From the IMG/VR virus record IMGVR_UViG_3300048925_000129: a DNA stretch of 64,000 nt; one strand, given 5' to 3'. The notes beneath the pieces were generated by a model. The model did no database searches and was not told the origin of the DNA. It saw only the letters and a program-made list of their open reading frames with translations. The position numbers were made by a program, and so were the translations under genes. Numbering within the stretch: position 1 is the first letter of the stretch; each line of letters opens with the position of its first letter. This document shows positions 5,221 to 30,161 of the stretch, piece after piece. This DNA is from a virus.

Positions 5221-6645
5221 ATGAATAATTATAAAAAACCTTGTGGATGCAAGGATAAAAAAGTTCCATGTGGTTGTGAGGAACCACTGATTTGTGGGTG
5301 TTCAAATAAATATGATTTACTTTGTTCTTTCTATAGTGGTAATCCATTAAATCCAATTGGTATTGAGCCAGGGATGGATGGAAACACTGTTGTTAGAATG
5401 ATAGTTGAGTATATTGATTCTGAGATATCTCAAATACAAATGGACCCAACAGTAATAGAAAGTATTGGAGGTAAAATTCCTATATATAAGGGTTTATCCG
5501 ATGGATTTATTCATCAAATTAAATCTATTCAAGGACAACCCAATGGAGGAGTTATTGTTGAGAATGCACAAGCCACTCCAAATGATTGTAATGAAAAGGG
5601 GGATTATATTAATGTTAAAATAGATGAAACTTGGTTAACTAATTTCCTTAATCAGTGGATATTAACTATTGACTTGTGTCCTTTAGTAGCTAATTGTGGA
5701 CAAGAAATACAAAACCCAACAGTTACAAATATTCCTATATCATTAGCTAACAGAGGTACAAAGACCTTTACATTATCAGACTTTACATCACATTATGTTG
5801 ACCCTCAGGGAGACCCATTAACATCAATTAGATTAATTGGTAATATAACAGGATATAAATTAAACGGAGTAGCTTATGTATCCAATACTGAAGTTACAGC
5901 AGCTAATTTAGCATCAGGGGCACTAACATATACTGGAGAAAATATAGACTCATTATATACTTATGATACTCCATACCAAGCTAAAGATTCTCAAAATAAT
6001 TGGTCAAACATAGCTGATATTATAATAACAGTAGCTGCTAAACAATTTTTATCCTTTAGTACTCCTACTCTGTCTCTTATAAGAGAAGTATCTAATACAA
6101 AAACATCTAGTATAGCATTTAGTAATGGTAATGGTCAGATTATGCCAAATGGATATATATTCGTATCTCAAGGTACTTCGGGACAGCCAGGATATTTAAG
6201 AATAACTTCAACTTCGCAAGTAACTTTAAATGGTACAGGTAATATTCCTATTCAAGTAGTATCAATACCAACCTCTACACAATCAAATCAAACTGTTAAT
6301 TACGTTTTTGATGGTTCTAATGGAAGCATTAATTTAATATATAACTCAAATCCTGTAACGCAAGATATTGTAATTAATATACCTAATAGAGGAGAACATG
6401 TATTTACTTCACAAGAATTCCTTAATGCTTACTTTGATTACGATGGGGATTCCCTTACTGAATTCAGAGCAATGGTTCCTGTAGCAGGAATGAAATTAAA
6501 TGGACTTGATTATATTGCAGGTACTTGGATTCCTATTAATAATGCTACTCAATTATCATTTACTGGGGCTAATCAAAATGCAGCATACCAACAAATAACT
6601 CCTTGGCAAGCCAAAGATTCTCAAGGTAATATTTCATCACTTTAA
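5221..6645 (+). CDS. fibre protein: Cys-rich N-terminus plus tandem Ig/cadherin-like domains
   Basis: CGC repeats; internal repeat NRG..FT..F...YxDx(Q/D)GDxL...[YW]QAKDSQ occurs twice. Confidence 0.7.
   Translation: MNNYKKPCGCKDKKVPCGCEEPLICGCSNKYDLLCSFYSGNPLNPIGIEPGMDGNTVVRMIVEYIDSEISQIQMDPTVIESIGGKIPIYKGLSDGFIHQIKSIQGQPNGGVIVENAQATPNDCNEKGDYINVKIDETWLTNFLNQWILTIDLCPLVANCGQEIQNPTVTNIPISLANRGTKTFTLSDFTSHYVDPQGDPLTSIRLIGNITGYKLNGVAYVSNTEVTAANLASGALTYTGENIDSLYTYDTPYQAKDSQNNWSNIADIIITVAAKQFLSFSTPTLSLIREVSNTKTSSIAFSNGNGQIMPNGYIFVSQGTSGQPGYLRITSTSQVTLNGTGNIPIQVVSIPTSTQSNQTVNYVFDGSNGSINLIYNSNPVTQDIVINIPNRGEHVFTSQEFLNAYFDYDGDSLTEFRAMVPVAGMKLNGLDYIAGTWIPINNATQLSFTGANQNAAYQQITPWQAKDSQGNISSL
6610..6639 (+). 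repeat. 30-bp direct repeat, copy 1 (gccaaagattctcaaggtaatatttcatca)
   Basis: Identical to 14831-14860. Confidence 0.95.
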
Positions 6646-6656
6646 TATATTAAATA

Positions 6657-7088
6657 ATGATAGAATATAAGAATTTTAAATGGGCTGAAATTATCGAAGA
6701 TGAATCTCAGATAACTAAAACTAGTGCCTTATATATGATCCCTGTCGATAATACTACATTTAGAATAGTAGTAGCAGACGAGGATGGAAATAGAAGAACA
6801 ATATTTAGTACTGGACAACCAGGAGAAAATGCAACAATAGAAATTGGAAGTGTAGAAAAATTACCACCAGATGGGTTTCCTACAGTAAATAATATAGGAA
6901 CAGATACTCATGCTATTTTAGAGTTTGGAATACCCCAAGGAGGAAAGGGTGACCCAGGAGAGGCAGGAGATATATCTGCAATAAATTTTGAAGTAAACGA
7001 TGATATGCATTTAATAATGCAATTAGAAACAAATACAAATTTAGATTTCATTTTAGATAGTGACGGACATTTAATATTGACAAATTAA
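6657..7088 (+). CDS. fibre adapter with short collagen-like stretch and C-terminal module B
   Basis: FGIPQGGKGDPGEAG; C-terminus INFEVNDDMHLIM...DGHLILTN is shared with 8976..9281. Confidence 0.7.
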   Translation: MIEYKNFKWAEIIEDESQITKTSALYMIPVDNTTFRIVVADEDGNRRTIFSTGQPGENATIEIGSVEKLPPDGFPTVNNIGTDTHAILEFGIPQGGKGDPGEAGDISAINFEVNDDMHLIMQLETNTNLDFILDSDGHLILTN

Positions 7089-7106
7089 TATGGCAATAGA
7101 CTTAGG
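7065..7106 (+). repeat. 42-bp gene-junction repeat, copy 1
   Basis: 38/42 identical to 9258-9299; spans stop-T-ATG. Confidence 0.9.
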
Positions 7107-8937
7107 TAAAATAGCTATGACATTAGAAGGATCTTATGATAGTTCTATAACATATAATAAATTAGACACTGTTACATTTAATGGTAGCTCATATACATCT
7201 AGTGTAGATAACAATAATGCACCTATAACAGATACAACAAGTTGGCAATTAATTGCTAAGAAAGGTCAAGATGGTAATGATGGTATCCCTGGTCCTATTG
7301 GTGAGAAAGGAGATAAGGGGGAAGACGGAATAGATGGTATCAATGGTACTAATGCTCAATCTTTTAACTATAAAGGAGAAGTAGTAAATTATGCAGGGTT
7401 ACCTGCAACAGGTAACATTATTAATGATGCTTATTTTAATAGAGCAGATAATTTGTGGTACATATATAATGGTACTAGTTTTCCTTCTAATGGACAAGGA
7501 TTACCTGTAGGTGTATTGAGTTTAACTACTACATTTGATAAAACAAATACAACTAAAGCAGAAAGTGGTAAAAATATTTATGATGCCTCAGAAGATTTAG
7601 TTAAAAAAGCACTAGAAAGTCCAGGAAGTGTTTATGCAAAATATGGATGGGATACAAATTATGTAGGAATAGCTGGTACTACTACAATGGTTTGTAATAT
7701 GGCTTATTTAACAGGGTCTGCTACTATAGGTAGAGTAACTATTAATGCACCAGTATCTGGTAATTTTGAAATATATAAAGTTAATGGTGGTGTAACTCCT
7801 ACTATAGGTAATGCTTTAACTAAAACTTATATAACTACAGTAGCTTTGACAGTAGGTATTAATGTAATAGATACTTCAATTCCTGGAGTAGCAGGAGATA
7901 TGATTGCAATTAAAAACCTATCAGGATCTATTGGTTATACAGATGGAGGAACTCATCAATATTTTGATGCTTCACCAGCTACTATATTAAATATAAATTC
8001 AGGTTATATTGCTTATTATTTTGAAACATCTGTTCAAGGATCAGTACAATATCCTTTAGATAATTTAAAAAAAGTAGTCACAATAAGTACTACTGATTTT
8101 GATAAGATATTAGAGGGTTCAGATACAAGTTCATCAATACATTCAAGAATTACAATAGAAGGACAATCTAATGCTTTAGGTGTTGGTTTTGCTTCTGGGT
8201 TAACAGTACCTCCTTATAATACATCTTTATTTGATTGGACACTTGAGTTCTCAAGAGTTTTTATTTGGAATCCTAAAACAGATAAGTATGAAAATATACA
8301 AATAGGAGTTAATAATATGGCCTCTTGGGATTCATATTATACTATAGGTGCTCCTACACCTCAATCAACATTTGGTCCAGAAATAGGAGTTGCTTTAATT
8401 TGGTTACAAACACATAAATCAGGAAATCTATATATTGATAAGAATGTTGGCGATGGAAGACCTATCTCTTACTTTCAAAAAGGTACAGCTTATTATACTG
8501 AAAAAATAAATAGGAAAACAAAAGCTGATCTATGGTTAAAGGACAGAGGATTTTCTGTATCAGAAGTAGGATTTATATGGGTTCAAGGAGAAGCAGATAT
8601 GTCTCAAACAGATACATATTATAAATCTCAGTTAGATATGTTAATTAATGATAGATTAACTGATGGTTTTATTGATTCTAAGACTAAATTAATTATTACT
8701 CAAATTCCAGTTGGATCAGGGAATTATGGAGCAGGTGTATTTAATGCAAAAAGTCAATTTGTAGCATCTAATAAAAATTCAATATTAGTACCATATACAA
8801 ATAATTTTAATGGGGATAATATACATTTGAATACTACAGGTCAAATTAATTTAGGGATGTTATCAGCTATTAAAATATTACCTTCTGATAATTTAAACTA
8901 TACAGATTTAGAAACCAAAATATATTGGAACAAATAA
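7090..8937 (+). CDS. receptor-binding protein with C-terminal SASA/CE6-type acetylesterase
   Basis: N-terminal module A, GXY collagen run, GQSN, FGPE, WVQGEAD and DNIH motifs. Confidence 0.8.
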   Translation: MAIDLGKIAMTLEGSYDSSITYNKLDTVTFNGSSYTSSVDNNNAPITDTTSWQLIAKKGQDGNDGIPGPIGEKGDKGEDGIDGINGTNAQSFNYKGEVVNYAGLPATGNIINDAYFNRADNLWYIYNGTSFPSNGQGLPVGVLSLTTTFDKTNTTKAESGKNIYDASEDLVKKALESPGSVYAKYGWDTNYVGIAGTTTMVCNMAYLTGSATIGRVTINAPVSGNFEIYKVNGGVTPTIGNALTKTYITTVALTVGINVIDTSIPGVAGDMIAIKNLSGSIGYTDGGTHQYFDASPATILNINSGYIAYYFETSVQGSVQYPLDNLKKVVTISTTDFDKILEGSDTSSSIHSRITIEGQSNALGVGFASGLTVPPYNTSLFDWTLEFSRVFIWNPKTDKYENIQIGVNNMASWDSYYTIGAPTPQSTFGPEIGVALIWLQTHKSGNLYIDKNVGDGRPISYFQKGTAYYTEKINRKTKADLWLKDRGFSVSEVGFIWVQGEADMSQTDTYYKSQLDMLINDRLTDGFIDSKTKLIITQIPVGSGNYGAGVFNAKSQFVASNKNSILVPYTNNFNGDNIHLNTTGQINLGMLSAIKILPSDNLNYTDLETKIYWNK

Positions 8938-8975
8938 TAACATACAATAAAACTAATATTAATTAATTAATTAAA

Positions 8976-9281
8976 ATGTCAACAGATTTAGGGAAGATAT
9001 CTATAACTTTAGAAGGGGAATATAATGCCTCTATAGTTTATTCTAAGTTAGATATGGTTACGTTTAATGGTAGTTCTTACACTTCTAAAAAAGATAATAA
9101 TACAGCACCAATAACAGATGTAACAAGCTGGCAATTGAGTGCTCAAAAAGGCGATACAGGGAATGTATCTACTATATCATTTAACATAAATAATGATATG
9201 GATTTAATAATGGAATTAAGTACAAACAGTAATTTAAATTTTGTTATTGATAGTACAGGACATTTAATATTAATAAATTAA
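8976..9281 (+). CDS. small adapter (module A + module B)
   Basis: N-half paralogous to the N-termini of 7090 and 9283; C-half paralogous to the C-terminus of 6657. Confidence 0.8.
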   Translation: MSTDLGKISITLEGEYNASIVYSKLDMVTFNGSSYTSKKDNNTAPITDVTSWQLSAQKGDTGNVSTISFNINNDMDLIMELSTNSNLNFVIDSTGHLILIN

Positions 9282-9299
9282 TATGGCAATAAATTTAGG
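9258..9299 (+). repeat. 42-bp gene-junction repeat, copy 2
   Basis: 38/42 identical to 7065-7106. Confidence 0.9.
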
Positions 9300-10983
9300 A
9301 AAGGTCTCAGTAACTCCAAAAGGAGTATACGTAAGTAGTCAAGCATATGAAAGACTTGATATTGTGGTGTCAAATGGTTCATCATATATATCTTTGAAAG
9401 ATAATAATTTAAGCCCTTTGACAGACACTTTATCCTGGCAAATAAATGCAGCAAAAGGAGACCCAGGTGCTCCAGGTATAAAAGGGGATACAGGATATAA
9501 AACAATAGATCCTTATCCACTTTTACCAACTGATCCAACACCAACGGTTGTAGGATGGTATAAGCCTCAACAATCATCTGTAACACCTGGTACTAATTAT
9601 CCTAATGCAGGGAATTTAAAATCTATTGAAGGATATGATACACTATTTTATTATAGTGGTACAACGTGGGTAAAATCAGAAAGCAAATTACCTCAAGTCT
9701 CTCAAAATATAATTAAGTTTCAAAATTTAACATTTCCTGCTGCATCAGGCACACAGGCAACTTATAATGATGCTGTATGGGAAGTTAATCAAGGTATGTC
9801 TGCCAGTTCTTCAGATATACCTAGTTTGACAAGTACGATTTGGAAATTAATAAGTAAAGATGAATATTTAAGGACAGTAGTAACAGCTAACTCAGTTCCA
9901 GAAAATGCTTATACTGAATTTTATAACTCAGGAACAGCATTAAATGGTTTCTATAATGCTTCAGGGGTTTTCACATCTAATACAGATTATAAATGTACTC
10001 CAAAAATTCCTGTTACAGCAGGAGAAATTTGGAGATACAGAGGTAAACCTTATGCAGGATTAAGTGTTAGAGGGGTATATGGATATAAGGCAGATAATTC
10101 TATAGTTATATTAGTTAATGTAGTTGATGCTAATGCAGCATATGTAGAGTTCACAATCCCTACTGATATAATTCAAATAGCAGCTAATTATAATGTTCCA
10201 ACTACACAATATTATAGTATACAAAAAAAGACTGTAAATTATGTTTTTGTATCGGTAGCCAAAGATTTACTTGGAAATGTTACAGATATAAATAATAATA
10301 ATGTTTCTAGAGTAAAAACAGGATTATCAATTGCATCAGTAGGTGATAGTATTACAGCTAATGGAGCAGCAGGATCACCATTAAAAGGATATCAGTGGTA
10401 TTTAAAAGATTTTTATGATTTTACAACATATACCTCATATGGGTATAGTGGTAGAGCATTATCTACATTTATAACTCCAGATACTAATAGTATTATTGAA
10501 CAATTTATAAATAATGCGGTTTCTCATGATGTTTTTACACTATTAGCAGGTACAAATGACTTTAGGAATAATATGAGAAACGGGGAAATAGGTACTTTAA
10601 ATGATTATAAAAATTTAACATCTTATGGTGCTGTAGGTAGTGTAACATCACTTAATTTTTATCAAGCACTAAAAGCTTTTGTTTTAAGATGTTATGAATT
10701 AAATCCCAAAGCAAAAATTATATTCATTACCCCATTACAAAGAGATAATGCAGGTTATACATCATGGTCAGTAAATCCAGTAGGAAGAACATTATCTGAT
10801 TTTGTAAATGCCATTAGAGAAGTAGCTGAATATGAAAGCATACCTTTAGTTGATTCATTTAAGAATGGAGTAATAAATATGAGAAATATAACTCAATATA
10901 CATCAGATGGATTACATCCAAATAATGAGGGGTATAAGATTTTGGCAAGAAGCATGCAACCAGCAATTAATAAATTTATTTAA
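9283..10983 (+). CDS. receptor-binding protein with C-terminal SGNH/GDSL esterase
   Basis: Module A, short collagen stretch, GDSIT, GYSG, GTND and DGLHPN blocks. Confidence 0.85.
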   Translation: MAINLGKVSVTPKGVYVSSQAYERLDIVVSNGSSYISLKDNNLSPLTDTLSWQINAAKGDPGAPGIKGDTGYKTIDPYPLLPTDPTPTVVGWYKPQQSSVTPGTNYPNAGNLKSIEGYDTLFYYSGTTWVKSESKLPQVSQNIIKFQNLTFPAASGTQATYNDAVWEVNQGMSASSSDIPSLTSTIWKLISKDEYLRTVVTANSVPENAYTEFYNSGTALNGFYNASGVFTSNTDYKCTPKIPVTAGEIWRYRGKPYAGLSVRGVYGYKADNSIVILVNVVDANAAYVEFTIPTDIIQIAANYNVPTTQYYSIQKKTVNYVFVSVAKDLLGNVTDINNNNVSRVKTGLSIASVGDSITANGAAGSPLKGYQWYLKDFYDFTTYTSYGYSGRALSTFITPDTNSIIEQFINNAVSHDVFTLLAGTNDFRNNMRNGEIGTLNDYKNLTSYGAVGSVTSLNFYQALKAFVLRCYELNPKAKIIFITPLQRDNAGYTSWSVNPVGRTLSDFVNAIREVAEYESIPLVDSFKNGVINMRNITQYTSDGLHPNNEGYKILARSMQPAINKFI

Positions 10984-10984
10984 A

Positions 10985-11218
10985 ATGGCAGCAGATTTAG
11001 GAAAAATAACTACAACATTGGAGGGAGACTTTAATCCCTCTAATGTGTATGAGAGATTAGATATAGTAACATTTGATGGGAGTTCTTACATTTCAAAAAT
11101 AGATAATAATAACTTTCCTTTAACAGACACAACTGCTTGGCAATTAAGTGCTAAAAAGGGAGATACAGGAGCTGATGGAACTTTTATTTTAGAGTATAAT
11201 GATATTTTTGATATTTAA
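10985..11218 (+). CDS. small adapter (module A + short tail)
   Basis: Start moved to ATG 10985 (MAADLGKI), which matches the other module-A N-termini. Confidence 0.75.
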   Translation: MAADLGKITTTLEGDFNPSNVYERLDIVTFDGSSYISKIDNNNFPLTDTTAWQLSAKKGDTGADGTFILEYNDIFDI

Positions 11219-11221
11219 TAT

Positions 11222-13474
11222 ATGAGTATAGCTAACGATATAAAAAAAACTATTGATGTAGCATCAGGAGCTGATGTTAACTATAGAGTTACTGGTACAT
11301 GGTATGATGGTACTCTATTAAATGATACTAGGTTAGACCAAGATAAGTTTAGAAAATTAAATAATATATACTATAAGAAAACTATTGCTTCTGACTTAAT
11401 GCCAAAGGTAGATACAATAGCTGATTTAAGACTATATAATGGTTATTTTGAAGGTCAGGTAGTTGATCTATTAGGATACTATGTTGCAGGGGATAAAGAT
11501 ACAGTAAGATATAAATTTACAGTAGCTAATTACTCAACTTTGGTTGATGATGGAGGAGGAGTTATTAAAACAGATAGAGGATCATGGATAGCTCAATTTG
11601 GTAACGTAATTGATGTTAGAGATTATGGATGTTCTGAATCATTACCTGATAACTCTACAATACTTAATACCATTATTCAAAAACAGTCTGGGAAAGAAAT
11701 TTCCATAGGAACACTAAATTTGAAATTTACAAAATCTATTATTATAAATAATAAGATTAAAATTAGAGGAGTTGTCAGAAGTAGTATATTTGATTTTACA
11801 GGATTAACACCAGCAGATTATGCAATTAGAACAAACACTACAGCCGCAATTAATGGGTTAGAAATAGAGGGTCTAAGAGTAATTGGAGCCCCTACAGTAA
11901 ATTTTATTAGAATCAATCAAAACAATAATATTAACTTCTCTTTAACTGATTCTATTTTTACTAACCTTAGAATAGAAGGATTTAATACAGGATTACAATC
12001 TAATTATATGTGGTGTAATACTTTCTTGAATGTAAGATTCAATGGATGTATTGAACCATTAGTATTAAACTCTCAATCTAATCAACTTGACTTTATAAGA
12101 TGCTCTTTTGTATCATACAAGAAAGCAATTAAACATACAAATTGTGAGGGTATTACATACACAACTTGTAATATAGCCAACTTTAATTTAGCAGGAGATG
12201 TAGATGCCACGCAGAGCTTTATGTCTTTATTTCAGAGTAATGTTACAATAATTAATCCTTATTTTGAACTTGTATCAAGTGCTGTTCTTGCAGTGGGTGG
12301 TAGTTCAGAAGTAAATAAATCATCTTTAAATATCCTAGGAGGAAAAACTACTGATGATAATGTTAGAGTAAAAATTAATGGAAATGATACAAAAATATCT
12401 CTTAAAGGTCTTAACAATAAAAACGGTAAGGATATATATGTATTAGAGAATGCTGCTAATGATATTGCACCAACAAACTATGTAAGAGAAATATATTTAG
12501 ATAATGGGCAGACATCTGTTAATAATACGTTATTTAAATTTGATGGTAATCAAGAATGGAATTTCACAAACTTTGGTGGAGGAGCAATTAGTATTAGAAC
12601 TGTAAACAAAGGTTTTAAAACTATTCAGATGAATGGTCCCGCTAACACTGGAGTAAGGTTAACTAACTCATTAGTATCAGGAAACTATTATACTTTAGTC
12701 TACATGATTAATAAAAGAGCTGTTACAGGAACTCTAAGAATACATCATGGTGCTGATTACCAAGTTCTTCCAATACAAGAACTTACGGATAATTTTGAAA
12801 TGAGATATATACCATTCAAAGCAATGGGAACCAATCTTGATTTAGCATGTACTGTTACAGGAGATTCTTTTGATTTCAGATACTTAACTATTGTAGAAGG
12901 AAACTATATTCCAAATAGCTTTGAAAAAACGTATATCCCACATTTCCCTTCAATACCAACATCTGTGGGTAACTTTGCAAATGGTGATATTGTTAAGGAT
13001 TCATTACTTGGAGATACTTACTACACATTAGTTTCAGGGGTATGGCAGACTGTTAAATTAATGAAGCAATCAGCAGCCGTTACAGATGTCACAGCCACAA
13101 ATAGTTCTCAGGTTTCTATAGCAGATTTAACATCTATATCAATAGCAGACTTGGTAACAATGTCTACTGCTGATCCTACGACTATATCAACTACAGATGC
13201 AGGGTCTACTTATACTACTGCTGAACAAGCATTAATTAATGAACTGAAAGCAAAAGTAAATGTTTTAACTAGTTTTGTGATTGAATTAAAAGCTAAAGCT
13301 AATTTAAATGTTACATTAACTAATGATGAAAAAGCTAAGATAAATCTAGGAGTAACAATGTCAAACGATATTAAATCTAAGTATAATACAACTTCTACTT
13401 TAGCTAACAGTAATAAGACTCAATTAAATGCACACATGGCGGCTGAAAGAACATCGGGGCAACAAGCACCTTAA
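11222..13474 (+). CDS. tailspike/depolymerase with pectate-lyase-like beta-helix and C-terminal coiled trimerisation domain
   Basis: TIADLR, DDGG and DVRDYG motifs; Asn/Ile ladders; C-terminal ELKAK repeats. Confidence 0.75.
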   Translation: MSIANDIKKTIDVASGADVNYRVTGTWYDGTLLNDTRLDQDKFRKLNNIYYKKTIASDLMPKVDTIADLRLYNGYFEGQVVDLLGYYVAGDKDTVRYKFTVANYSTLVDDGGGVIKTDRGSWIAQFGNVIDVRDYGCSESLPDNSTILNTIIQKQSGKEISIGTLNLKFTKSIIINNKIKIRGVVRSSIFDFTGLTPADYAIRTNTTAAINGLEIEGLRVIGAPTVNFIRINQNNNINFSLTDSIFTNLRIEGFNTGLQSNYMWCNTFLNVRFNGCIEPLVLNSQSNQLDFIRCSFVSYKKAIKHTNCEGITYTTCNIANFNLAGDVDATQSFMSLFQSNVTIINPYFELVSSAVLAVGGSSEVNKSSLNILGGKTTDDNVRVKINGNDTKISLKGLNNKNGKDIYVLENAANDIAPTNYVREIYLDNGQTSVNNTLFKFDGNQEWNFTNFGGGAISIRTVNKGFKTIQMNGPANTGVRLTNSLVSGNYYTLVYMINKRAVTGTLRIHHGADYQVLPIQELTDNFEMRYIPFKAMGTNLDLACTVTGDSFDFRYLTIVEGNYIPNSFEKTYIPHFPSIPTSVGNFANGDIVKDSLLGDTYYTLVSGVWQTVKLMKQSAAVTDVTATNSSQVSIADLTSISIADLVTMSTADPTTISTTDAGSTYTTAEQALINELKAKVNVLTSFVIELKAKANLNVTLTNDEKAKINLGVTMSNDIKSKYNTTSTLANSNKTQLNAHMAAERTSGQQAP

Positions 13475-13489
13475 TACTTTTAAAATAAA

Positions 13490-13864
13490 ATGGGAGGAAA
13501 AATAATTTTTAATGTGTCTGAGTTACAGTGTATTCCACCAAATATAACAAATACTTCCTGGACTGGTATAAGATATGTTTTTGATGTGGATTGGACCTCT
13601 AATGGAAATGAATATCATAGTATTGATCCGACAACTAATTTGGAACTAAGTATGACTATAGTTGAAGTTGCAACTAGTACCACTGTATTTTCTGGTGTTA
13701 TTGATTCATCAGTACCATTTATAACTACAGGATACCAGTTTGATGCTTATGATTATTATCCTACTTTTTCAGATAAATATCAGATAACATTAACACTTAG
13801 TTTAACTTCAGTTATAGCATGTAATGAATCAACTTCGTTCATTATTCCTATAGACTATACATAA
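13490..13864 (+). CDS. small Ig-like fibre subunit
   Basis: Paralog of 13870 (QC.P, WTS, C...FIIP); N-terminal IIFNV strand. Confidence 0.6.
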   Translation: MGGKIIFNVSELQCIPPNITNTSWTGIRYVFDVDWTSNGNEYHSIDPTTNLELSMTIVEVATSTTVFSGVIDSSVPFITTGYQFDAYDYYPTFSDKYQITLTLSLTSVIACNESTSFIIPIDYT

Positions 13865-13869
13865 ATACT

Positions 13870-14211
13870 ATGGCAAATATAATATATAATATAGCAGAAT
13901 TTCAATGTGTATCACCTGTAATGGGTGATACATTTAGACAAGGAGGAGAGTGGAGATTTAATTGGACGTCTCAGTGGGATTTATATACATCTTTAGGTTT
14001 AAATACAAATATTAAATTATTTTATTCAGGAGATGGTCAACCAGAAGTAGAATATACTAATCAAACTATACCAGCAAATGCAAATAGTTTTTTAATAGAT
14101 GATATAATTAATTTTGATACAGTAAATTTTAGAGTTTTATTTACAATTGATAATGGAACTACTTGCTCTAAACAATTTATTATACCAAATTCATCCATAA
14201 TAATAACATAA
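13870..14211 (+). CDS. small Ig-like fibre subunit
   Basis: Paralog of 13490; N-terminal IIYNI strand. Confidence 0.6.
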   Translation: MANIIYNIAEFQCVSPVMGDTFRQGGEWRFNWTSQWDLYTSLGLNTNIKLFYSGDGQPEVEYTNQTIPANANSFLIDDIINFDTVNFRVLFTIDNGTTCSKQFIIPNSSIIIT

Positions 14212-14212
14212 T

Positions 14213-14863
14213 ATGTCTAATATAATTTTTAATGTAGCAGTTAAGCAATTTATTAACTTCTCTCCAGTAACTGTAACCTTAATAAGAGAACAAACTAATT
14301 CAGTTCCTACTACTCTAAACTATAGTAATGGAACAGGGCAAACTATGACTGCTGGACAAGTTTTATACTCAGTAGGTACATCAGGAACTCTAGGATTTAT
14401 TGAAGTTGTTGTTCAAAGTTCAGTTACGTTAAATGGTTCTGGTACTATTAACATAGTAGTGAACTCTTATCCAACAGCAACTCAAACAAATCAAACTATA
14501 ACACCTGTTTTTGATCAATCAAATATTACTATAAATCTAGTTTATAATTCAAAACCAGTAACTTCTAATGTTAACATTTCATTAGAGAACAGAGGAACTC
14601 ATAGTTTTACAACTACAGAATTCGTAAATAGTTATACTGATTATGATTCTGATGCTTTGTCAGCAATAATGGCTACAGGAGATGTAACTGGGTATCAATA
14701 TGATATTAATGGTACAAATAACTGGGTAGCATACACAGCAGGTACATGGATTCCTGTGAGTAATATAACAAGATTAAGATATGTAGCATTAGATCAGAAT
14801 GATGCTTATACTAAATCTAATCCATGGTTCGCCAAAGATTCTCAAGGTAATATTTCATCATAA
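14213..14863 (+). CDS. two-domain Ig/cadherin-like fibre subunit
   Basis: Colinear paralog of the C-terminal ~205 aa of 5221..6645. Confidence 0.8.
   Translation: MSNIIFNVAVKQFINFSPVTVTLIREQTNSVPTTLNYSNGTGQTMTAGQVLYSVGTSGTLGFIEVVVQSSVTLNGSGTINIVVNSYPTATQTNQTITPVFDQSNITINLVYNSKPVTSNVNISLENRGTHSFTTTEFVNSYTDYDSDALSAIMATGDVTGYQYDINGTNNWVAYTAGTWIPVSNITRLRYVALDQNDAYTKSNPWFAKDSQGNISS
14831..14860 (+). repeat. 30-bp direct repeat, copy 2
   Basis: Identical to 6610-6639. Confidence 0.95.
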
Positions 14864-14887
14864 TGTTTAATAATAATATAATTTAAA

Positions 14888-15397
14888 ATGGGAGGTTTAA
14901 TAAATATAAGTGTTCAAGAGGAACCTATAAGTCCAATGAGTTATGATGGCTATAGTGTGGGACAAGCTACAATATGTAATAGTGCTGCATCACAAAGAAA
15001 TGTTAAATTTAATGATATTTTAGGTGACTTTGTAGTAGGGAAAAACTATAGCCATGCTCAAGGATTACCTGCACAGACCTTAAGAATTATTAATTTTACA
15101 GATGATAATTTTTTTATTGAAAATTCATCAGGTAATCAATCTCCAGCTCCAGGGTTTGTTCCAAGAAGATTAAAAAATTTGACAACAAATACAGTTATTA
15201 CTACATTTCCTTATGAAATATCTATAGCTAATTTAAGTCAATTAGGAGTGGAGAATATTGGGACAGAATTAATATGTCCTTCTGATACTGTAAATTACAC
15301 AGGTAGAAGGGTAAGGCAATTATCTTATAGAATATTAGATTCTAATGGTGCAGTAGGACCTCTTAAAATTGCTGACTACATGAATACTCCTCAGTAA
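14888..15397 (+). CDS. divergent cadherin-like fibre subunit
   Basis: YSHAQGLPAQTLRII, EISIANL and YRILDSNG align with the repeat in 5221. Confidence 0.55.
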   Translation: MGGLINISVQEEPISPMSYDGYSVGQATICNSAASQRNVKFNDILGDFVVGKNYSHAQGLPAQTLRIINFTDDNFFIENSSGNQSPAPGFVPRRLKNLTTNTVITTFPYEISIANLSQLGVENIGTELICPSDTVNYTGRRVRQLSYRILDSNGAVGPLKIADYMNTPQ

Positions 15398-18376: not shown

Positions 18377-19972
18377 ATGGTTGGCTATAAAGTAACAGAT
18401 TCAGATATTGAATTGATAAAAGAACTGATGCAAAAGCATCATGACAATATTACCAGGGCTACAAAAGAGTTCTGTGAGAAACTAGAAATTGTATTTACAG
18501 ACTCTAGTAGAAAAAGAGTTTCCAGTCTTCTTCATTCAGCGGGATATTTTCCTGAAACTGACGAAGAGGTAAAAGATATTTCAGTATTAGACAAAGACTA
18601 CTTAATTGCTAAAGAAAGGGTACTTCCAGAGTCTAAATATTACATCATAACATGGGAGCAAAATGAGACTCCTTTACATTCCAAGCTTTGGAGAAACATC
18701 TTAGCCTATAAAGACTTCTTAGGAGCGGAGCTGAGTGTTATTCTTGGTAGGTATCAAAACCCAACATCTGTGTTTAGAGATGTACAACATGAAAGTTGGA
18801 ATCCTGCTACTAAGCCATACTGGGATACCAATAGGCACGACATCCATAAATACCTTACAATTTTGGGAGATGTTAAGATTCAGCCAACGGCTGCTAATCC
18901 ATTGACAGGTTTAGAGTCTATCTCAGGAGAGACTACAACCATCATAGGACACCCAAAAATGCATTTAAAACCTGTTCCAGTATTGGAGGGTCACCCAAAA
19001 AAGATATTGCTTACAACAGGAGCTATTACACTCCCAAACTACACAGACTCTAAATCAGGTAAAAGAGGTGAATTCCATCATAAACTTGGATTCACTATTG
19101 TTGAGATAAAGGATGAGGAAATATTCTTTATCAGGCAAGTAGAAGCAGATGAATCTGGAAACTTTATTGATCTTTATCATGAGGTTAAAAATGGAAAGGT
19201 AAAACAGGTTCCAAAAGCTGAAGGAATTGTCTGGGGAGATACACACGTAAACTCCTTAAACCCAGAGATTCTTGAACCTACAGAAAATCTTATAAGAGAC
19301 CTTGGAATTAAAGTAGAAATTCATCACGATCTAAGTGATGGTATTTCGGTAAACAATCACATTACCAATAATCCAGTTGAGCAGCATAAAAGGTTTATGA
19401 AAGGTTTAGATAGTGTTGAGGTTGAACTCCACAGAACAGCTAACTTCTTGAGAAGAAGACCTGACACTTTCAAAATCATAGTTCAATCTAATCACAATGA
19501 TAGATACGATAGATGGATAATCAACCAAGACTGGAGAAAGGATATTCCAAATGCTATTCCATTTATGAAGTATGGATTAGCTACTCTACAAGGTAAAGCT
19601 GATAAAGGGATTCTTGCATTCTTCCTGGAGGAACAATTCTCTGACAAAGAAATATTGTGCTTAGACTATGACGACTCATATATCTTAGGAGGGTTTGAGA
19701 TAGCACATCATGGGCACATTGGTTCAAATGGTTCTAAAGGATCAATTGAGCAGTTTAGAAAGATGTCGATGAAGATGATCATTGGACATTACCACAAACC
19801 TATGAGATTAGATAAAGTTCTGGCAGTTGGGACTTCTACCCATTTGAGAGAGGGGTACAACAAAGGAGCATCAGATTGGATGAACTCACATGTCATCATC
19901 CACAGTAACGGGACAGCCCAACACATTATATTCATAAAAGGAGAATTTACAACCTTCAAGAGAGAGCTTTAG
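18377..19972 (+). CDS. T5 A1-like metallophosphoesterase-fold nuclease
   Basis: TTGAITLPNY..K.G....FHH, GDTH, SNHND, HGH.G.NG..GS, GHYH and GYN.G.S.W motifs recalled from the T5 A1 family. Confidence 0.75.
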   Translation: MVGYKVTDSDIELIKELMQKHHDNITRATKEFCEKLEIVFTDSSRKRVSSLLHSAGYFPETDEEVKDISVLDKDYLIAKERVLPESKYYIITWEQNETPLHSKLWRNILAYKDFLGAELSVILGRYQNPTSVFRDVQHESWNPATKPYWDTNRHDIHKYLTILGDVKIQPTAANPLTGLESISGETTTIIGHPKMHLKPVPVLEGHPKKILLTTGAITLPNYTDSKSGKRGEFHHKLGFTIVEIKDEEIFFIRQVEADESGNFIDLYHEVKNGKVKQVPKAEGIVWGDTHVNSLNPEILEPTENLIRDLGIKVEIHHDLSDGISVNNHITNNPVEQHKRFMKGLDSVEVELHRTANFLRRRPDTFKIIVQSNHNDRYDRWIINQDWRKDIPNAIPFMKYGLATLQGKADKGILAFFLEEQFSDKEILCLDYDDSYILGGFEIAHHGHIGSNGSKGSIEQFRKMSMKMIIGHYHKPMRLDKVLAVGTSTHLREGYNKGASDWMNSHVIIHSNGTAQHIIFIKGEFTTFKREL

Positions 19973-28100: not shown

Positions 28101-28767
28101 TTACATTTCATATGATAACTACTTTAGAACAGGATTAAACGAGTCAAATAATGTAGTAGGTAAAAGTAATGATGGTATGGTTAAAACAGGTATATGGTCT
28201 CACCTATTGACTAATAAGTCTTATGGTGTATTCTATGGTAAGAAACATTTATGGGGTGTAGAGATTGTTTCAAAAGAACAATTTAATCAGAAGATCATGT
28301 CCGATGTCAACTACTGGCTAGATTCCCTAGTGTACCACAATGATTATGACTATGCTCAGAATACAAACTTAGGTTTAGATTCAGCTATTATCTATAATAA
28401 TACTAACAATTCAGGTAAACTGAATTTAATTAGAAGACAGGAAAATAATAGATTCCAGTACACTAAGTATCCTATCTATAATACAGATGGAAGCTCAGAT
28501 ATTCTGGCATCTTATGATGAAGGAAGTTGGAGATTTAATGACTTCTTCAACAGAACCATAAATGAAAATAATAATGTTCCAATTTGGAATTACGATATCA
28601 ATGCTATCGACAAAGTAATCAATCCAAGAGCTATCTCATTCAAGAGAACCTGGTTGGATAGATTAAGAGGAGATTACTTTATGGTAAGATTTGAAGGAGG
28701 TAGTGATACAAGATATAAGCAAATTTTCAAGTGGAATTATAACAACGAACAAATAGTAGTATCATAA
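22102..28767 (+). CDS. tail muzzle/stabilisation protein
   Basis: 2221 aa; GM.RD N-terminus, LYWTDGYNPPRYI, EFGHFYVDARRG and WISYY.F.P beta-propeller-like motifs typical of crAss-like muzzle proteins. Confidence 0.75.
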   Translation: MQNNQNSIYIPTMGMDRDSHPIRLKDGSYTFAKNISIEDSSGNGIPIVQNEPSNILCQEIKGGRNVIGFKYEPSLRKTFLFITNTITNVSEVGYISHDNYTYNQEGEIQDCNCEPSIELGTPLEDLIEYTENCEYTMLISDGCTQANKCLNFSINHPVKPNNIVFKNEQCGKRLYWTDGYNPPRYIHLEELEEGFAGDKWKTNRYYHNGALVCKQEIDLVQTCLNCEALKIFPDFSIPCIDIKTVVAGGNLFEGTYEFYIAFCDEEGNEISNYYSHTFPTPIFNFENVVVDSWDMSRQTTYGINIEMSYLDTSFSYYKIVCVFKSAQGQTERYYDLGVFPISQTVVAISTMGNSKDITLSKIITKKQEVAVVDKMSEANGFLFMGGLTAKTPLNLQPIVALMGPFARWNTLIANEKLYKNAAFSQKFRSYMRDESYTFSLTFGYSDGTESSDFILINRGPYTAADYQALGQTMPGDLTVVVNNSGDVPVPIGNDKNVAAMLNSNLACFDTNRIYRWQYYNTALNKGMSLASLVDTDIDLSNTTGLIKRVIHSTCSSVDLNGLNIIPDTNIRIDGDYQFFNGTPAEYLNSHYADFTNPGYPFYSSYLHEFLKLTRYNGLGCFYTLSGTSSNCNNFILESENVNFSQADFVTLTPTMLPFSNYTYMQLDYVETQFTNGNRVVDTTMSTALGLKGYPQIQLRIDTQLGYTCATSIAAYSLNNITPVDTDGFIFKNLGTTIDNYTPDLVFSEYITGSMPDTYEYSLRPLYVSGSGIKMNDAPLGSKFKSSNEVWKFLKVKQQFSTNVAKNAQWFKLNSLDTYPYLQINFKSLSSVPISDSDLNVYYVVTGETDVTMNRLGKVRMSIFDGCATSGNKTAIHSQFFNLTDNPLIDVKTIINNLGLITNKSYIISFDCPIQRVEKQIINFTRRYHSDTPMQENQIPQGAYLHMEKMGMGQNTYYRARNFNQNDQPATTCIDPLIQMNPIAWSSSGNYTELGVCTGPIESLFVPPPAPVADGFIWTTTSLENSFMVTQRGEEVDYYDLTLSNALIAKTQEFQKDCYYKDITGQVCDYENYENGIFAYTESTETYPDNPYLFDASKLPTKITEQLVNSSISETLGSGINDFDIFEGVKFKDLFRLNFGSNSKFVEDAKIDFTCKPIRHFKFPDNTISPFIYTNEVFDFNETFIHPLGVSIDSNVVNVFLNLAVKTGQITQEQRDSIVYFKVNRGTRGINRTVLSKGFLSDMIKYSDTDGPENYYSNFPYNSLNNKELIYANGTSPISHQNGKKGNSRFSFISPEVMSGVSVTPTEFKLDGYVYGGGVRQADEVKEHALMTVLTQNAKDLAIKLGKAEASFELAMNIANGLLNSVEAFDMFYGWTGVGINIGGMINFTLGMGTLIAFESSEFNRKLYSYAYKWMEAFKEAGKGANFAYYLASSGYYNNFSPLDRMSQEQLRSLRISKVLEDGNYQINHDFGTVVDINNIDREKSMYLYMGPNYQTNGFTYPDDYIGKDNSNKEPTEDVIKKNESLNIANLYGGLKIYNPAQYGRIHNITWVPVPGCFYLKNDDINIFFGGDTYISRFSYKKKYNFYLVTELWQKNYTPIKYSRYDNVGKNKYFIDYDSEVTDIGSYGLPFADSAYRLQFKQEHGKYVDGGRFYHYEYGFHDQLVESEINCWTRVALPQAKDNFFPNFPDFMKFTQETYLSIRERESFLYNNVYSNEGVRYVGRFLPDSYEPKFYNCINNSPSGIIRSQVDRSEKRKVDPWLIYKALDFDNFKAAYGKFISLKSIESEQLLALFEHKLVLLNKIDVIRERTTPENVDLGQGIFNTRPIEFHSTDNGYGGSQHSDILSNEFGHFYVDARRGQVFQVDPNGENMTEITTGVRNWFKEHLPFKILRANIDGLTDLDLDNNFKGIGITLGWDSRYKRVFLTKLDYVVKPEYKGKLEYREITDGNSLIVTKVIVDKVTGQEVKFSNRNVFTPAHFTIAYNPLFKTWISYYAFSPNYYISYDNYFRTGLNESNNVVGKSNDGMVKTGIWSHLLTNKSYGVFYGKKHLWGVEIVSKEQFNQKIMSDVNYWLDSLVYHNDYDYAQNTNLGLDSAIIYNNTNNSGKLNLIRRQENNRFQYTKYPIYNTDGSSDILASYDEGSWRFNDFFNRTINENNNVPIWNYDINAIDKVINPRAISFKRTWLDRLRGDYFMVRFEGGSDTRYKQIFKWNYNNEQIVVS

Positions 28768-30161
28768 TGCCAAGATTAAAAGATAAAGACGGAACACCAG
28801 CCTGGAAGTGGAATAAAAAAGCTTCCAGTGTGAATGTTGCCAATTTGAACCCAAATATTATTCAGTACTTTGATACACTCCCTCAGGAGATTCAAAGTAG
28901 GATTCTGGCAACATCTGGCAATGATTCTGGACATGCAAAAACCAGTAGACACTATGCTGACAATGCAATTGACTTAAGATATGATGATGTTATCTGGCAA
29001 TATGTGGCAAAAGACCCAAACAGATTAAAATACGGATTGACTTTGTTAGACCCTGATCATGGGTCTGCAAAGCATATCCATTTGAGTCATGGAGATGGTA
29101 GTGAAAACAAGAAAGATGTTTGGATGAACCCTTATTCTCCAGAGGCAAGGGATATAATTGGGATGCAGCCAACTGAGGTTAAAAATCCTAATCCAACTTT
29201 AGTTGGAACAACCAATACTCAGATCATTATGAATGACACTAGTAAAAGGGATGAGTTTTTAAAAGGCTTACAAGATCAGATAAGATTTGACTCTCAAGTT
29301 GATGCTCAACAGAAGCAGCTTATAGCTCAAGAACAAGAAAGACAACAGATAGCAGCCCAAAGATTTCAAGAAAGAAATGCCATACTGGATGCCATAGGTA
29401 ATAACAACTTGGAGTTTGAAGGTAGAAATTATAAGCCCAATCAACAATTTGCTGATGGGGGAATAGTTGAGGGATTAGATGAGGACATAAACTTTATGAT
29501 TCAAAATCTTAAACAGGATGTTCCTAACTTTGAAAGTCCAGAGTATTTGGCTTTAGTTCAGGAGAATCAAGCTACACAAAATAGACTTTCTAAAAATATG
29601 GAGCTATACGATAAAGCTTATTCTCAATATCAAATGAGTCAGCCTACTATCATCAACAATGAAACATATGGTGCACTTCCTGTTGCAGCCCCTCAACCAC
29701 AAGTAGAAGCAAACCCTGAAAAGGTTTCCAGTCTTTCTTCAACAAAAGGAATGCTCTATTCTGAATTAAAAAATTTAGGATTAAATAACTTTCAAGTTGC
29801 AGGTGTGATAGGATCTCTAGGAGGGGAATCCCATGAGAAGATATCCCATACAGCTAGAAATAGTTCTTCAGGAGCTTTTGGTATTGCACAGTGGTTAGGA
29901 CCAAGATATAGAAATTTAGTTAAGTTCTCTAATGAACAGGGACTTGATTTTAACTCTCCCGAAGCTCAAGTGAAGTTTCTTATCAGTGAGTTGAAAGGAA
30001 GTGAGAAAGGAACACTAAACAGTATTCTTAAGACTAAGAATCTTTCAGAAGCAACTGAGACATGGACTAGAAAATATGAGAGACCAAGTGAACAAGAAAT
30101 TAGAGGTTCCTTAGGTAGAAGAATAAATTTTGCACAAAATTTCTTAAACAGTATAAGTTAA
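28767..30161 (+). CDS. virion-associated dual peptidoglycan hydrolase (M15-like peptidase + phage tail lysozyme)
   Basis: SRHY..NAID...HIH at the N-terminus; AG..G....ES, GAFGIAQW, YERP at the C-terminus. Confidence 0.8.
   Translation: MPRLKDKDGTPAWKWNKKASSVNVANLNPNIIQYFDTLPQEIQSRILATSGNDSGHAKTSRHYADNAIDLRYDDVIWQYVAKDPNRLKYGLTLLDPDHGSAKHIHLSHGDGSENKKDVWMNPYSPEARDIIGMQPTEVKNPNPTLVGTTNTQIIMNDTSKRDEFLKGLQDQIRFDSQVDAQQKQLIAQEQERQQIAAQRFQERNAILDAIGNNNLEFEGRNYKPNQQFADGGIVEGLDEDINFMIQNLKQDVPNFESPEYLALVQENQATQNRLSKNMELYDKAYSQYQMSQPTIINNETYGALPVAAPQPQVEANPEKVSSLSSTKGMLYSELKNLGLNNFQVAGVIGSLGGESHEKISHTARNSSSGAFGIAQWLGPRYRNLVKFSNEQGLDFNSPEAQVKFLISELKGSEKGTLNSILKTKNLSEATETWTRKYERPSEQEIRGSLGRRINFAQNFLNSIS

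What the first reader, a model, noticed from the sequence alone, without database searches (positions are those of the whole stretch)
5221..15397. Possible donor-strand-complemented Ig/cadherin fibre in a phage
Seen: the first cadherin-like repeat of 5221 ends YQAKDSQNNWSN-IADIIITVAAKQF. Its last repeat stops at WQAKDSQGNISSL*, lacking that final strand. 14213 also stops at WFAKDSQGNISS* but begins MSNIIFNVAVKQF, the missing strand. 13490 (MGGKIIFNV), 13870 (MANIIYNI) and 14888 (MGGLINISV) begin with a similar strand. Established: chaperone-usher pilins polymerise when an N-terminal donor strand completes the neighbour's Ig fold. Inference: 5221 is the anchor, 14213 (donor plus acceptor) can self-polymerise to extend the fibre, and 13490/13870/14888 are interchangeable tips. 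I do not know of this being described for phage fibres.
Basis: partly seen in the sequence, partly recalled or inferred. Interest (0 to 1): 0.8.

Follow-up and report, generated by a model that had tools for sequence, protein, structure and literature searches.

The report
Phage fibre joined by split cadherin-like domains
In a 159-kb crAss-type phage, two fibre proteins end in an immunoglobulin-like domain that lacks its last strand, and four neighbouring proteins begin with exactly that strand, so the pieces most likely snap together into a modular fibre with exchangeable tips, much as bacterial pili do; this is inferred from sequence and single-chain models, not shown.

Summary
P0001 (5221) and P0004 (14213) both stop 1-2 residues after "KDSQGNIS". 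P0004, P0002, P0003 and P0005 begin with an amphipathic strand.

What I found:
- P0004 is an end-to-end paralog of P0001 residues 264-474.
- The domain is a divergent bacterial cadherin-like repeat, and the missing piece is its canonical G strand.
- In AlphaFold models the strand forms only where a cadherin-like domain precedes it in cis. Both terminal domains lose their A' ladder and half of F.
- 108 of 116 module copies end at the same loop.
- Every proposed joint exists as a natural fusion in relatives, and the fused or split state changed at least 4 times.

Most likely (about 0.7) this is a fibre assembled by trans strand completion: anchor, optional extender, then one of three caps.

Open-ended self-polymerisation of P0004 is unproven. 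The complex predictor was unavailable, so trans docking was not tested.

It is not a chaperone-usher system: the genome has no chaperone, usher or signal peptides. One solved phage precedent exists, the Tuc2009 BppU-BppA joint.

This scan has flagged analogous split-Ig joints in other phage genomes, and this same system in a related genome.

The parts
5221..5715 (+). P0001 residues 1-165: Cys-rich N-terminal region, presumed virion-docking part of the anchor
   Evidence: Invariant Cys at 8, 17, 27, 35, 153 and 159 (10, 19 and 123 nearly invariant) in 20 homologs. The same N-terminus is joined to an unrelated 755-aa body in P0088. AF2 confidence is low here. The docking role is inferred.
5716..6009 (+). 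P0001 residues 166-263: complete cadherin-like domain 1 (strands A to F)
   Evidence: The adhesin-repeat HMM hits it at E 2.1e-9. It is 40% identical to the terminal domain. DSSP shows an A strand at 171-175 and an 11-residue F strand at 246-256.
6010..6048 (+). P0001 residues 264-276 (IADIIITVAAKQF): G strand of domain 1, supplied in cis
   Evidence: Residues 265-271 are a strand at pLDDT above 90. Single-domain PDB matches to domain 1 span about 162-275, and the middle domain starts at 275.
6049..6348 (+). P0001 residues 277-376: middle Ig-like sandwich
   Evidence: Model range 275-375 matches the 1eut_A Ig-like domain at Z 8.3, rmsd 2.3, 90 aligned.
6349..6645 (+). P0001 residues 377-474 plus stop: terminal cadherin-like domain lacking the G strand (acceptor 1)
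   Evidence: It ends 'KDSQGNISSL' then TAA, with further in-frame stops. The A-equivalent is coil and F has only 5 residues. The HMM alignment stops short of the G columns.
13490..13864 (+). P0002, 124-aa tip or cap; donor strand about residues 3-10 (GKIIFNVS), then conserved Cys14
   Evidence: Residues 3-120 align to residues 217-333 of the fused protein P0106, starting at the strand that follows its module.
13870..14211 (+). P0003, 113-aa tip or cap, paralog of P0002; donor strand ANIIYNIA
   Evidence: 33% identity to P0002, same Cys pair.
14213..14251 (+). P0004 residues 1-13 (MSNIIFNVAVKQF): free N-terminal donor strand
   Evidence: Homologous to P0001 264-276. It is coil by DSSP in the pLDDT-95 monomer model. 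PDB matches to the middle domain start at residues 9-12.
14252..14551 (+). P0004 residues 14-113: middle Ig-like sandwich
14552..14863 (+). P0004 residues 114-216 plus stop: terminal cadherin-like domain lacking the G strand (acceptor 2)
   Evidence: Adhesin-repeat HMM E 1.1e-7. It ends 'KDSQGNISS' then TAA, with a second in-frame TAA before the next ATG. The CSPG4 repeat 7ml7_B aligns 92 residues here against 113 for the complete domain 1.
14888..15397 (+). P0005, 169-aa tip or cap of another family; donor strand GLINISV
   Evidence: Residues 5-169 are 65% identical to residues 98-262 of P0119, where they directly follow '...KDSNGNIS'. It is fused behind a module in L012 and in P0096.

Best explanation
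The five genes encode the parts of one modular virion fibre that is held together by completing a split domain.

P0001 is the anchor. It has a Cys-rich N-terminal part, presumably docked on the crAss-type tail, followed by a complete cadherin-like domain, a middle Ig-like domain, and a terminal cadherin-like domain that stops in the F-G loop and so lacks its G strand.

P0004 is an extender. It is the same middle-plus-truncated-domain module, preceded by a free copy of the G strand. P0002, P0003 and P0005 are caps: a G strand followed by a small head domain, with no acceptor.

The N-terminal strand of one subunit inserts between the A' and F strands of the truncated domain of the previous subunit. 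This rebuilds the same fold that relatives make as one polypeptide. The products would be anchor-cap or anchor-extender(n)-cap, with alternative tips on one phage.

Shown: the truncation, the identity of the strand, the conserved cut, and the natural fusions. Inferred: trans insertion, the order of subunits, and the tail location. Uncertain (about 1 in 3): n greater than 1, that is, true self-polymerisation of P0004.
For: 1. The domain is a bacterial cadherin-like repeat. P0004 hits long adhesins (P0124, E 3.7e-16, 29 stretches) whose repeats are Pfam Cadherin_4, Cadherin_5 and Big_9. An HMM of 27 P0124 repeat units hits P0001 domain 1, P0001 domain 2 and P0004 at 2e-9 to 1e-7.

2. In those repeats the F motif 'W-N-G-x-D-G-T-x-Y-A' is always followed by a G strand such as 'TANVNITVAAVND'. 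In fused relatives the profile aligns through the junction: P0106 111-224 covers HMM 2-107 of 111, with 'RDSITSISN|MANINIQVS' opposite 'SDGTVYATT|AKKVNISIA'; P0094 116-219 covers HMM 2-104.

3. AF2 models: P0001 265-271 is a confident strand directly after domain 1, while the homologous P0004 2-8 is coil. The complete domain has an A strand and an 11-residue F strand. Both truncated domains have a coil A and a 5-residue F. PDB matches put the domain 1 boundary at about 274-275.

4. Of 116 full module copies, 108 end within 6 residues of the motif. The 8 that continue all run straight into a G-like strand.

5. Every proposed joint occurs as a natural fusion: module-module-tip (P0094), module with a P0005-like tip (P0096, P0119, and the 394-aa protein of L012), module with a P0002/3-like tip (P0106, P0114, P0118), and domain 1 with a module (P0001 itself), against short anchors that stop after domain 1 (P0087, P0089).

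6. Starred branches of a quick tree force at least 4 independent fused/split changes.

7. The same layout, 1-2 donor-plus-acceptor proteins followed by 2-3 donor-only proteins, recurs in distant loci L001-L007, with genome-specific strand flavours.

8. The similarity of the N-termini is at protein level, not DNA level.
Against: No direct test of trans docking could be run. The first ten residues of the P0004 monomer model have a mean pLDDT of about 81, which is high for a free tail. No chaperone is evident that would keep open-groove subunits soluble in the cytoplasm. The Pfam cadherin models do not reach threshold on the phage proteins directly (Cadherin_5 11.8 bits against a cut-off of 26.5). 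Virion location and tail attachment are inferred from synteny only. No cultured relative carries the system.
Confidence: 0.7

Rival explanations
1. The cut is an ordinary domain boundary and there is no trans pairing. The shared N-terminal strand is either the first strand of each protein's own fold or a common docking peptide for some other virion socket. The terminal cadherin-like domains tolerate the missing strand.
For: Ig-like sandwiches sometimes survive loss of an edge strand. The first ten residues of the P0004 monomer have a mean pLDDT of about 81. Shared N-termini that dock several fibres on one adaptor are common in phages, and a second such set lies next door (7090, 8976, 9283).
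Against: The strand is homologous to the G strand of the preceding domain type, not to the following domain. In the models it is a strand only when that domain precedes it. The middle-domain matches start after it. In cadherin topology G is an inner strand between A' and F (established knowledge), and both of those lose their ladders in the truncated domains. In every fused form the strand directly follows the truncated domain.
Confidence: 0.15
2. The system is a strand-completed fibre, but of fixed composition: anchor, one extender, one cap, or anchor plus cap. The order is set by groove-strand specificity, and P0004 does not polymerise with itself.
For: The two acceptor domains differ in the A' region (DIVINI against NVNISL). 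Loci L005-L007 carry two different donor-plus-acceptor proteins with two donor flavours (HKIVFNV and LLKIKV), which suggests an ordered assembly as in P pili. An earlier follow-up on another phage reached the same view (e1-5466342, unchecked).
Against: P0094 has two sister modules in tandem, so a module-to-module joint is structurally allowed. P0004's donor strand is the closest match to the anchor's cis strand, which pairs with the same domain type.
Confidence: 0.4
3. The conserved ends are mainly DNA-level recombination sites that let tip cassettes be swapped or deleted. The protein-level resemblance is a by-product.
For: There is a 27-nt identity between 6610-6636 and 14831-14857. Tip order and content differ among the close relatives L012, L013 and the window.
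Against: The 5' ends of the donor genes are not unusually similar as DNA. The motif is conserved as protein down to 35% identity, where no DNA identity can persist. Recombination does not explain why the cut always lies inside a domain. This reading is compatible with the main explanation rather than an alternative to it.
Confidence: 0.05

Closest known systems
Donor-strand complementation and exchange in chaperone-usher pili (Fim, Pap, Caf1; established knowledge)
   Same: The subunit is an Ig-like fold lacking its C-terminal G strand. The missing strand is given by an N-terminal extension of the next subunit. Subunits with both donor and acceptor sit between an end subunit and a terminator that lacks one of the two.
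   Different: There is no PapD-like chaperone, usher or signal peptide (the donors start at residues 2-4). Assembly would be cytoplasmic. The domains are cadherin-like repeats, not pilins. The growing end is capped by donor-only heads. No sequence relationship was found.
Lactococcus phage Tuc2009 baseplate tripod, BppU-BppA joint (PMC4742702)
   Same: A phage adhesion device in which an Ig-like sandwich of one protein is completed in trans by strands of another. [quoted passage not shown]
   Different: There, a two-strand C-terminal hairpin is donated, at a single joint, with no chain of donor-plus-acceptor modules and no alternative caps. Here the donor is a single N-terminal G strand. Homology was not tested.
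Bacterial cadherin-like adhesin repeats (Pfam Cadherin_4 PF17803, Cadherin_5 PF17892, Big_9 PF17963)
   Same: The phage domain is homologous to these repeats, including the F motif and the G strand.
   Different: In adhesins all repeats are covalently linked and complete. In the phage the chain is cut in the F-G loop and the parts are encoded by separate genes.
Type V pili of Bacteroidota (FimA, Mfa1), TasA fibres (PMC9674648) and archaeal Tafi pili (established knowledge and library abstracts)
   Same: Fibres built by strand donation between Ig-like or jellyroll subunits without an usher. Type V pili occur in the presumed host phylum.
   Different: Type V pilins are lipoprotein precursors that need proteolytic removal of a strand and donate a C-terminal strand. 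TasA and Tafi are secreted. None of this applies here, and the proteins have no Pfam matches.

Membership tests
Bacterial cadherin-like domain (Cadherin_4 / Cadherin_5 / Big_9) | Significant sequence similarity to family members | tested here: met
   P0004 against adhesin P0124, E 3.7e-16. P0124 repeats are Cadherin_4 (3.9e-33) and Cadherin_5 (4.1e-24). An HMM of P0124 units hits P0001 domain 1 at 2.1e-9, domain 2 at 8.7e-8 and P0004 at 1.1e-7.
Bacterial cadherin-like domain (Cadherin_4 / Cadherin_5 / Big_9) | Match to the curated Pfam model above its gathering score | tested here: not met
   No Pfam hit at E up to 0.1. Cadherin_5 gives 11.8 bits against a cut-off of 26.5 on P0001 residues about 375-413. 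The phage domain is a divergent relative.
Bacterial cadherin-like domain (Cadherin_4 / Cadherin_5 / Big_9) | Complete sandwich ending in the G strand | tested here: not met
   Met for P0001 domain 1 (strand 265-271). Not met for the terminal domains of P0001 and P0004, which stop in the F-G loop. This is the finding itself.
Chaperone-usher pilus | Subunit fold lacking the C-terminal G strand, with an N-terminal donor extension | tested here: met
   This rests on sequence, homology and DSSP; the open groove itself was not seen in coordinates.
Chaperone-usher pilus | PapD-like periplasmic chaperone | tested here: not met
   PF00345 has no match in the complete 159-kb genome; the control genomes ring.
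Chaperone-usher pilus | Outer-membrane usher | tested here: not met
   PF00577 has no match.
Chaperone-usher pilus | Sec signal peptide on the subunits | tested here: not met
   The donor strand begins at residues 2-4, and an in-frame stop lies just upstream of each start, so no leader is possible.
Type V pilus (FimA/Mfa1) | Lipoprotein precursor, protease-released N-terminal strand, C-terminal donor strand | tested here: not met
   There is no lipobox or leader. The donor is N-terminal and the acceptor C-terminal. No FimA or Mfa Pfam family was hit.
Tuc2009 BppU-BppA type joint | C-terminal beta-hairpin of one baseplate protein completing an Ig-like sheet of another | tested here: not met
   Here a single N-terminal strand is donated. 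The principle is shared, but the polarity and number of strands differ.
Strand-completed phage fibre (functional class) | Physical insertion of the donor strand into the neighbouring subunit | not testable with these tools

The most novel reading that the evidence does not exclude
P0004 is a true self-polymerising, pilus-like shaft subunit. It would assemble in the cytoplasm without chaperone or usher, growing from the P0001 anchor until one of three competing donor-only heads caps it. Each virion would then carry fibres of variable length with a random mix of three receptor-binding tips, a built-in bet-hedging device for host range.
Probability: 0.3. Interest if true: 0.85.

Novelty: new variant of a known kind. 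Interest (0 to 1): 0.66.

Why it matters
If the joints work as inferred, phages have a plug-and-socket way to build receptor-binding fibres from separately encoded parts, using the principle known from bacterial pili but with no assembly machinery.

That would explain how tips can be exchanged by moving one small gene. It would also explain why gene callers see strings of small hypothetical proteins in fibre loci, and why distal crAss-type tail fibres are hard to assign.

The cut lies in one loop, and fused and split forms coexist in nature. The system is therefore also a ready-made natural model for split-domain protein ligation and for engineering phage host range in laboratory strains.

Tried and rejected
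- **Covariation.** Mutual information between the donor strand and the rest of 70 free modules was dominated by a clade-specific indel at 167-172. This is a phylogenetic artefact and is uninformative.
- **Readthrough or recoding fusion.** Rejected. Both acceptor genes end in TAA with further in-frame stops, and ORFs of about 2,000 aa are open under code 11.
- **Cultured relatives.** megablast and tblastn of the region, P0001 and P0004 against 50,697 phage records found no match. Only the ring protein links the genome to Cellulophaga phi4:1 and phi17:2 and to a crAss-like gut phage.
- **Shared docking domain with phi4:1.** P0001's N-terminus shows no significant similarity to the phi4:1 pectate-lyase spikes.
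- **IMG/VR scan.** It returned only two close relatives.
- **Tip function.** There is no Pfam or PHROG hit and no PDB sequence match. The Atlas model has pLDDT 0.30.
- **FimH pilin-domain match.** The match to the P0004 terminal domain (1ze3_H, Z 5.5) lies within the tool's stated noise range and is not used as evidence.
- **Literature.** Six searches found no phage fibre described as donor-strand assembled. The crassvirus atlas leaves the distal fibres unresolved.
Full report
**Observation.** P0001 (5221-6645, 474 aa) has '...YQAKDSQNNWSN' followed by 'IADIIITVAAKQF' at residues 264-276, and it ends '...WQAKDSQGNISSL*'. P0004 (14213-14863, 216 aa) starts 'MSNIIFNVAVKQF' and ends '...WFAKDSQGNISS*'. 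P0002, P0003 and P0005 start MGGKIIFNV, MANIIYNI and MGGLINISV. P0004 aligns from its first to its last residue with P0001 264-474 (49% identity, E 1e-66). The two cadherin-like domains of P0001 are 40% identical. In the complete 159,132-bp virus genome there are only three copies of the domain. Only P0001 and P0004 have the acceptor-type C-terminus among 394 ORFs.

**Context.** Neighbouring genes are tail-fibre proteins with SASA and GDSL esterase domains. Upstream lie a ring protein and virion structural proteins, and downstream an endolysin. The ring protein is 41% identical to that of the 145-kb Cellulophaga podophages phi4:1 and phi17:2, and 39% identical to the 'ring protein' of a crAss-like gut phage. 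The gene order is the same: terminase, portal, capsid, ring, structural protein, variable fibre genes, lysis. The cassette therefore sits where crAss-type phages keep their receptor-binding proteins. Attachment to the tail is inferred, not shown. The crassvirus atlas reports flexible, unresolved distal fibres and disulfide-stabilised docking hubs (PMC10172136). That may relate to the invariant cysteines in the P0001 N-terminus.

**What the missing piece is.** An exhaustive phmmer search with P0004 reaches long bacterial adhesins (P0124, 5,335 aa, 29 matched stretches, E 3.7e-16). Their repeats are Pfam Cadherin_4, Cadherin_5 and Big_9. In 27 repeat units of P0124, the F-strand motif 'W-N-G-x-D-G-T-x-Y-A' is always followed by a strand such as 'TANVNITVAAVND' or 'AAQVSISIAPVND'. 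This is visibly the counterpart of the phage 'IADIIITVAAKQF' and 'SNIIFNVAVKQF'. An HMM of these units hits P0001 domain 1, P0001 domain 2 and P0004 (2.1e-9, 8.7e-8, 1.1e-7). In fused relatives it aligns straight through the junction: P0106 residues 111-224 cover HMM positions 2-107 of 111, and P0094 residues 116-219 cover 2-104. The phage terminal domains therefore stop some 12-14 columns short of a canonical repeat, and the N-terminal strands correspond to those columns. The curated Pfam models themselves stay below threshold on the phage proteins, so this is a divergent relative.

**Structure models.** P0004 folds with mean pLDDT 95.3 into two Ig-like sandwiches, residues about 10-114 and 115-216. 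Residues 1-13 are in no sheet. In P0001 (pLDDT above 90 from residue 170), the homologous residues 265-271 are a strand. Domain 1 has an A strand (171-175) and an 11-residue F strand (246-256). In both truncated domains the A-equivalent is coil and F has 5 residues. Single-domain PDB matches to domain 1 run to residues 272-276: CSPG4 repeat 7ml7_B at Z 8.2 with 113 aligned, a dystroglycan cadherin-like domain at Z 7.8, and cadherin-23 EC9. The middle domain starts at 275. The same CSPG4 template aligns only 92 residues to the truncated P0004 domain. In cadherin topology G lies between A' and F (established knowledge), which fits the loss of both ladders.

**Conservation of the cut.** All of about 45 P0004 homologs are 207-229 aa, start with the strand and end 1-3 residues after '...GN.S'. 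About 40 anchors of 466-482 aa end the same way. Of 116 full module copies, 64 are free-standing, 44 follow an N-terminal extension (about 40 of them anchors) and 8 are fused at the C-terminus. 108 of them end within 6 residues of the motif. Shorter anchors (P0087, P0089; 289-299 aa) stop at the equivalent loop of domain 1. In their loci the next genes start 'MAFLIINVQG', 'MSTLTINN' and 'MSTLTIIN'. Distant loci, one of them in a Chryseobacterium genome, show the same order: donor-plus-acceptor proteins, then donor-only proteins, with other strand flavours such as 'LLKIKVK'.

**Natural fusions.**
- Module-module-tip: P0094.
- Module with a P0005-like tip: P0096, P0119 (65% identical to P0005 from the strand onward), and a 394-aa protein in the close relative L012. 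The window and L013 keep that tip as a separate gene.
- Module with a P0002/3-like tip: P0106, P0114 and P0118.
- P0125 and P0142 keep the final strand at their own C-terminus.

On a quick maximum-likelihood tree the fused forms are scattered, and starred branches force at least 4 changes of state. The free P0004 clade is sister to one clade of anchor modules at 96% support (this is a quick search, not the finished careful one). Repeated fission and fusion at one loop inside a domain is what is expected if the split and fused forms fold alike.

**Rivals.** Readthrough is excluded by multiple in-frame TAA stops. Recombination cassettes are a possible add-on, given the 27-nt identity at the two acceptor ends. 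They do not explain a protein-level motif that is conserved at 35% identity, nor the unremarkable DNA at the donor ends. An ordinary domain boundary is contradicted by the homology of the strand to the preceding domain type and by the models. Whether P0004 polymerises with itself or the fibre has a fixed composition stays open. The tandem modules of P0094 speak for the first. The different A' sequences of the two acceptors, and the two donor flavours in L005-L007, speak for the second.

**Comparison with known systems.** It works like chaperone-usher donor-strand complementation, with the same missing strand and the same N-terminal donor. It is not a member: the genome has no PapD-like chaperone and no usher, and no leader is possible. 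It is not a type V pilus. A solved phage precedent for trans completion of an Ig-like sheet is Tuc2009 BppU-BppA, which I checked in the paper. There a C-terminal two-strand hairpin is donated at a single joint. My six literature searches found no phage fibre described as donor-strand assembled.

Those are unchecked AI notes and are not counted as evidence.

**Limits.** The decisive computation, a multimer prediction with controls, could not be run. The covariation surrogate failed. Tip function is unknown.

**Verdict.** The anatomy is solid. Trans completion is the best-supported mechanism at about 0.7. Open-ended polymerisation is at about 0.3.

Noticed in passing
window 6657-11218: A second fibre set. 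Genes 7090, 8976, 9283 and an internal start in 10907 share a roughly 60-aa N-terminus (MAxDLGKI..TLEG; four 194-nt repeat copies of 61-75% identity to the copy at 8967). 7090 carries collagen-like and SASA esterase domains, and 9283 a GDSL esterase. The small ORFs 6657 and 8976 end '...GHLILTN' and '...GHLILIN' directly before genes that start 'MAIDLGK' and 'MAINLGK'. This may be another junction split across genes.
   Followed up: partly
window 6610-6636 and 14831-14857: A 27-nt identical direct repeat encodes AKDSQGNIS at the 3' ends of the two acceptor genes. Recombination between the copies would delete the 8.2-kb fibre cassette.
   Followed up: partly
window 5221-5715; P0002 family: P0001 has invariant or nearly invariant cysteines at 8, 10, 17, 19, 27, 35, 123, 153 and 159. 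The P0002/P0003 tips have an invariant Cys pair (14 and 111). These may be disulfides or metal sites, which would fit the disulfide-stabilised fibre hubs of crAss001.
   Followed up: no
L008 (P0125) and P0142: Module relatives of 330-332 aa keep the final strand at their own C-terminus ('...ISNVANWDIEVAGM*'). This is a closed, non-acceptor form that starts with a further cadherin-like domain.
   Followed up: no
L005, L006, L007: The same donor/acceptor gene set lies beside giant ORFs of 3,100-4,300 aa (ART-PolyVal, helicase, LPD38) and a beta-helix spike. One locus is in a Chryseobacterium sp. genome contig of 596 kb and another in an 81-kb contig with Rep3 and FtsK genes. These may be prophages or phage-plasmids, and no P0001-type anchor is nearby.
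   Followed up: partly
window 22102-51470: A run of very large ORFs (2221, 464, 1369, 848, 2017, 765 and 2022 aa) is typical of crAss-type cargo or ejected proteins. 28767-30161 has weak tape-measure-like PHROG hits.
   Followed up: no
window 18377-19972: A 531-aa protein matches PHROG 1745 'DNA transfer protein' (T5 A1-like) at E 8e-143, inside the late region.
   Followed up: no
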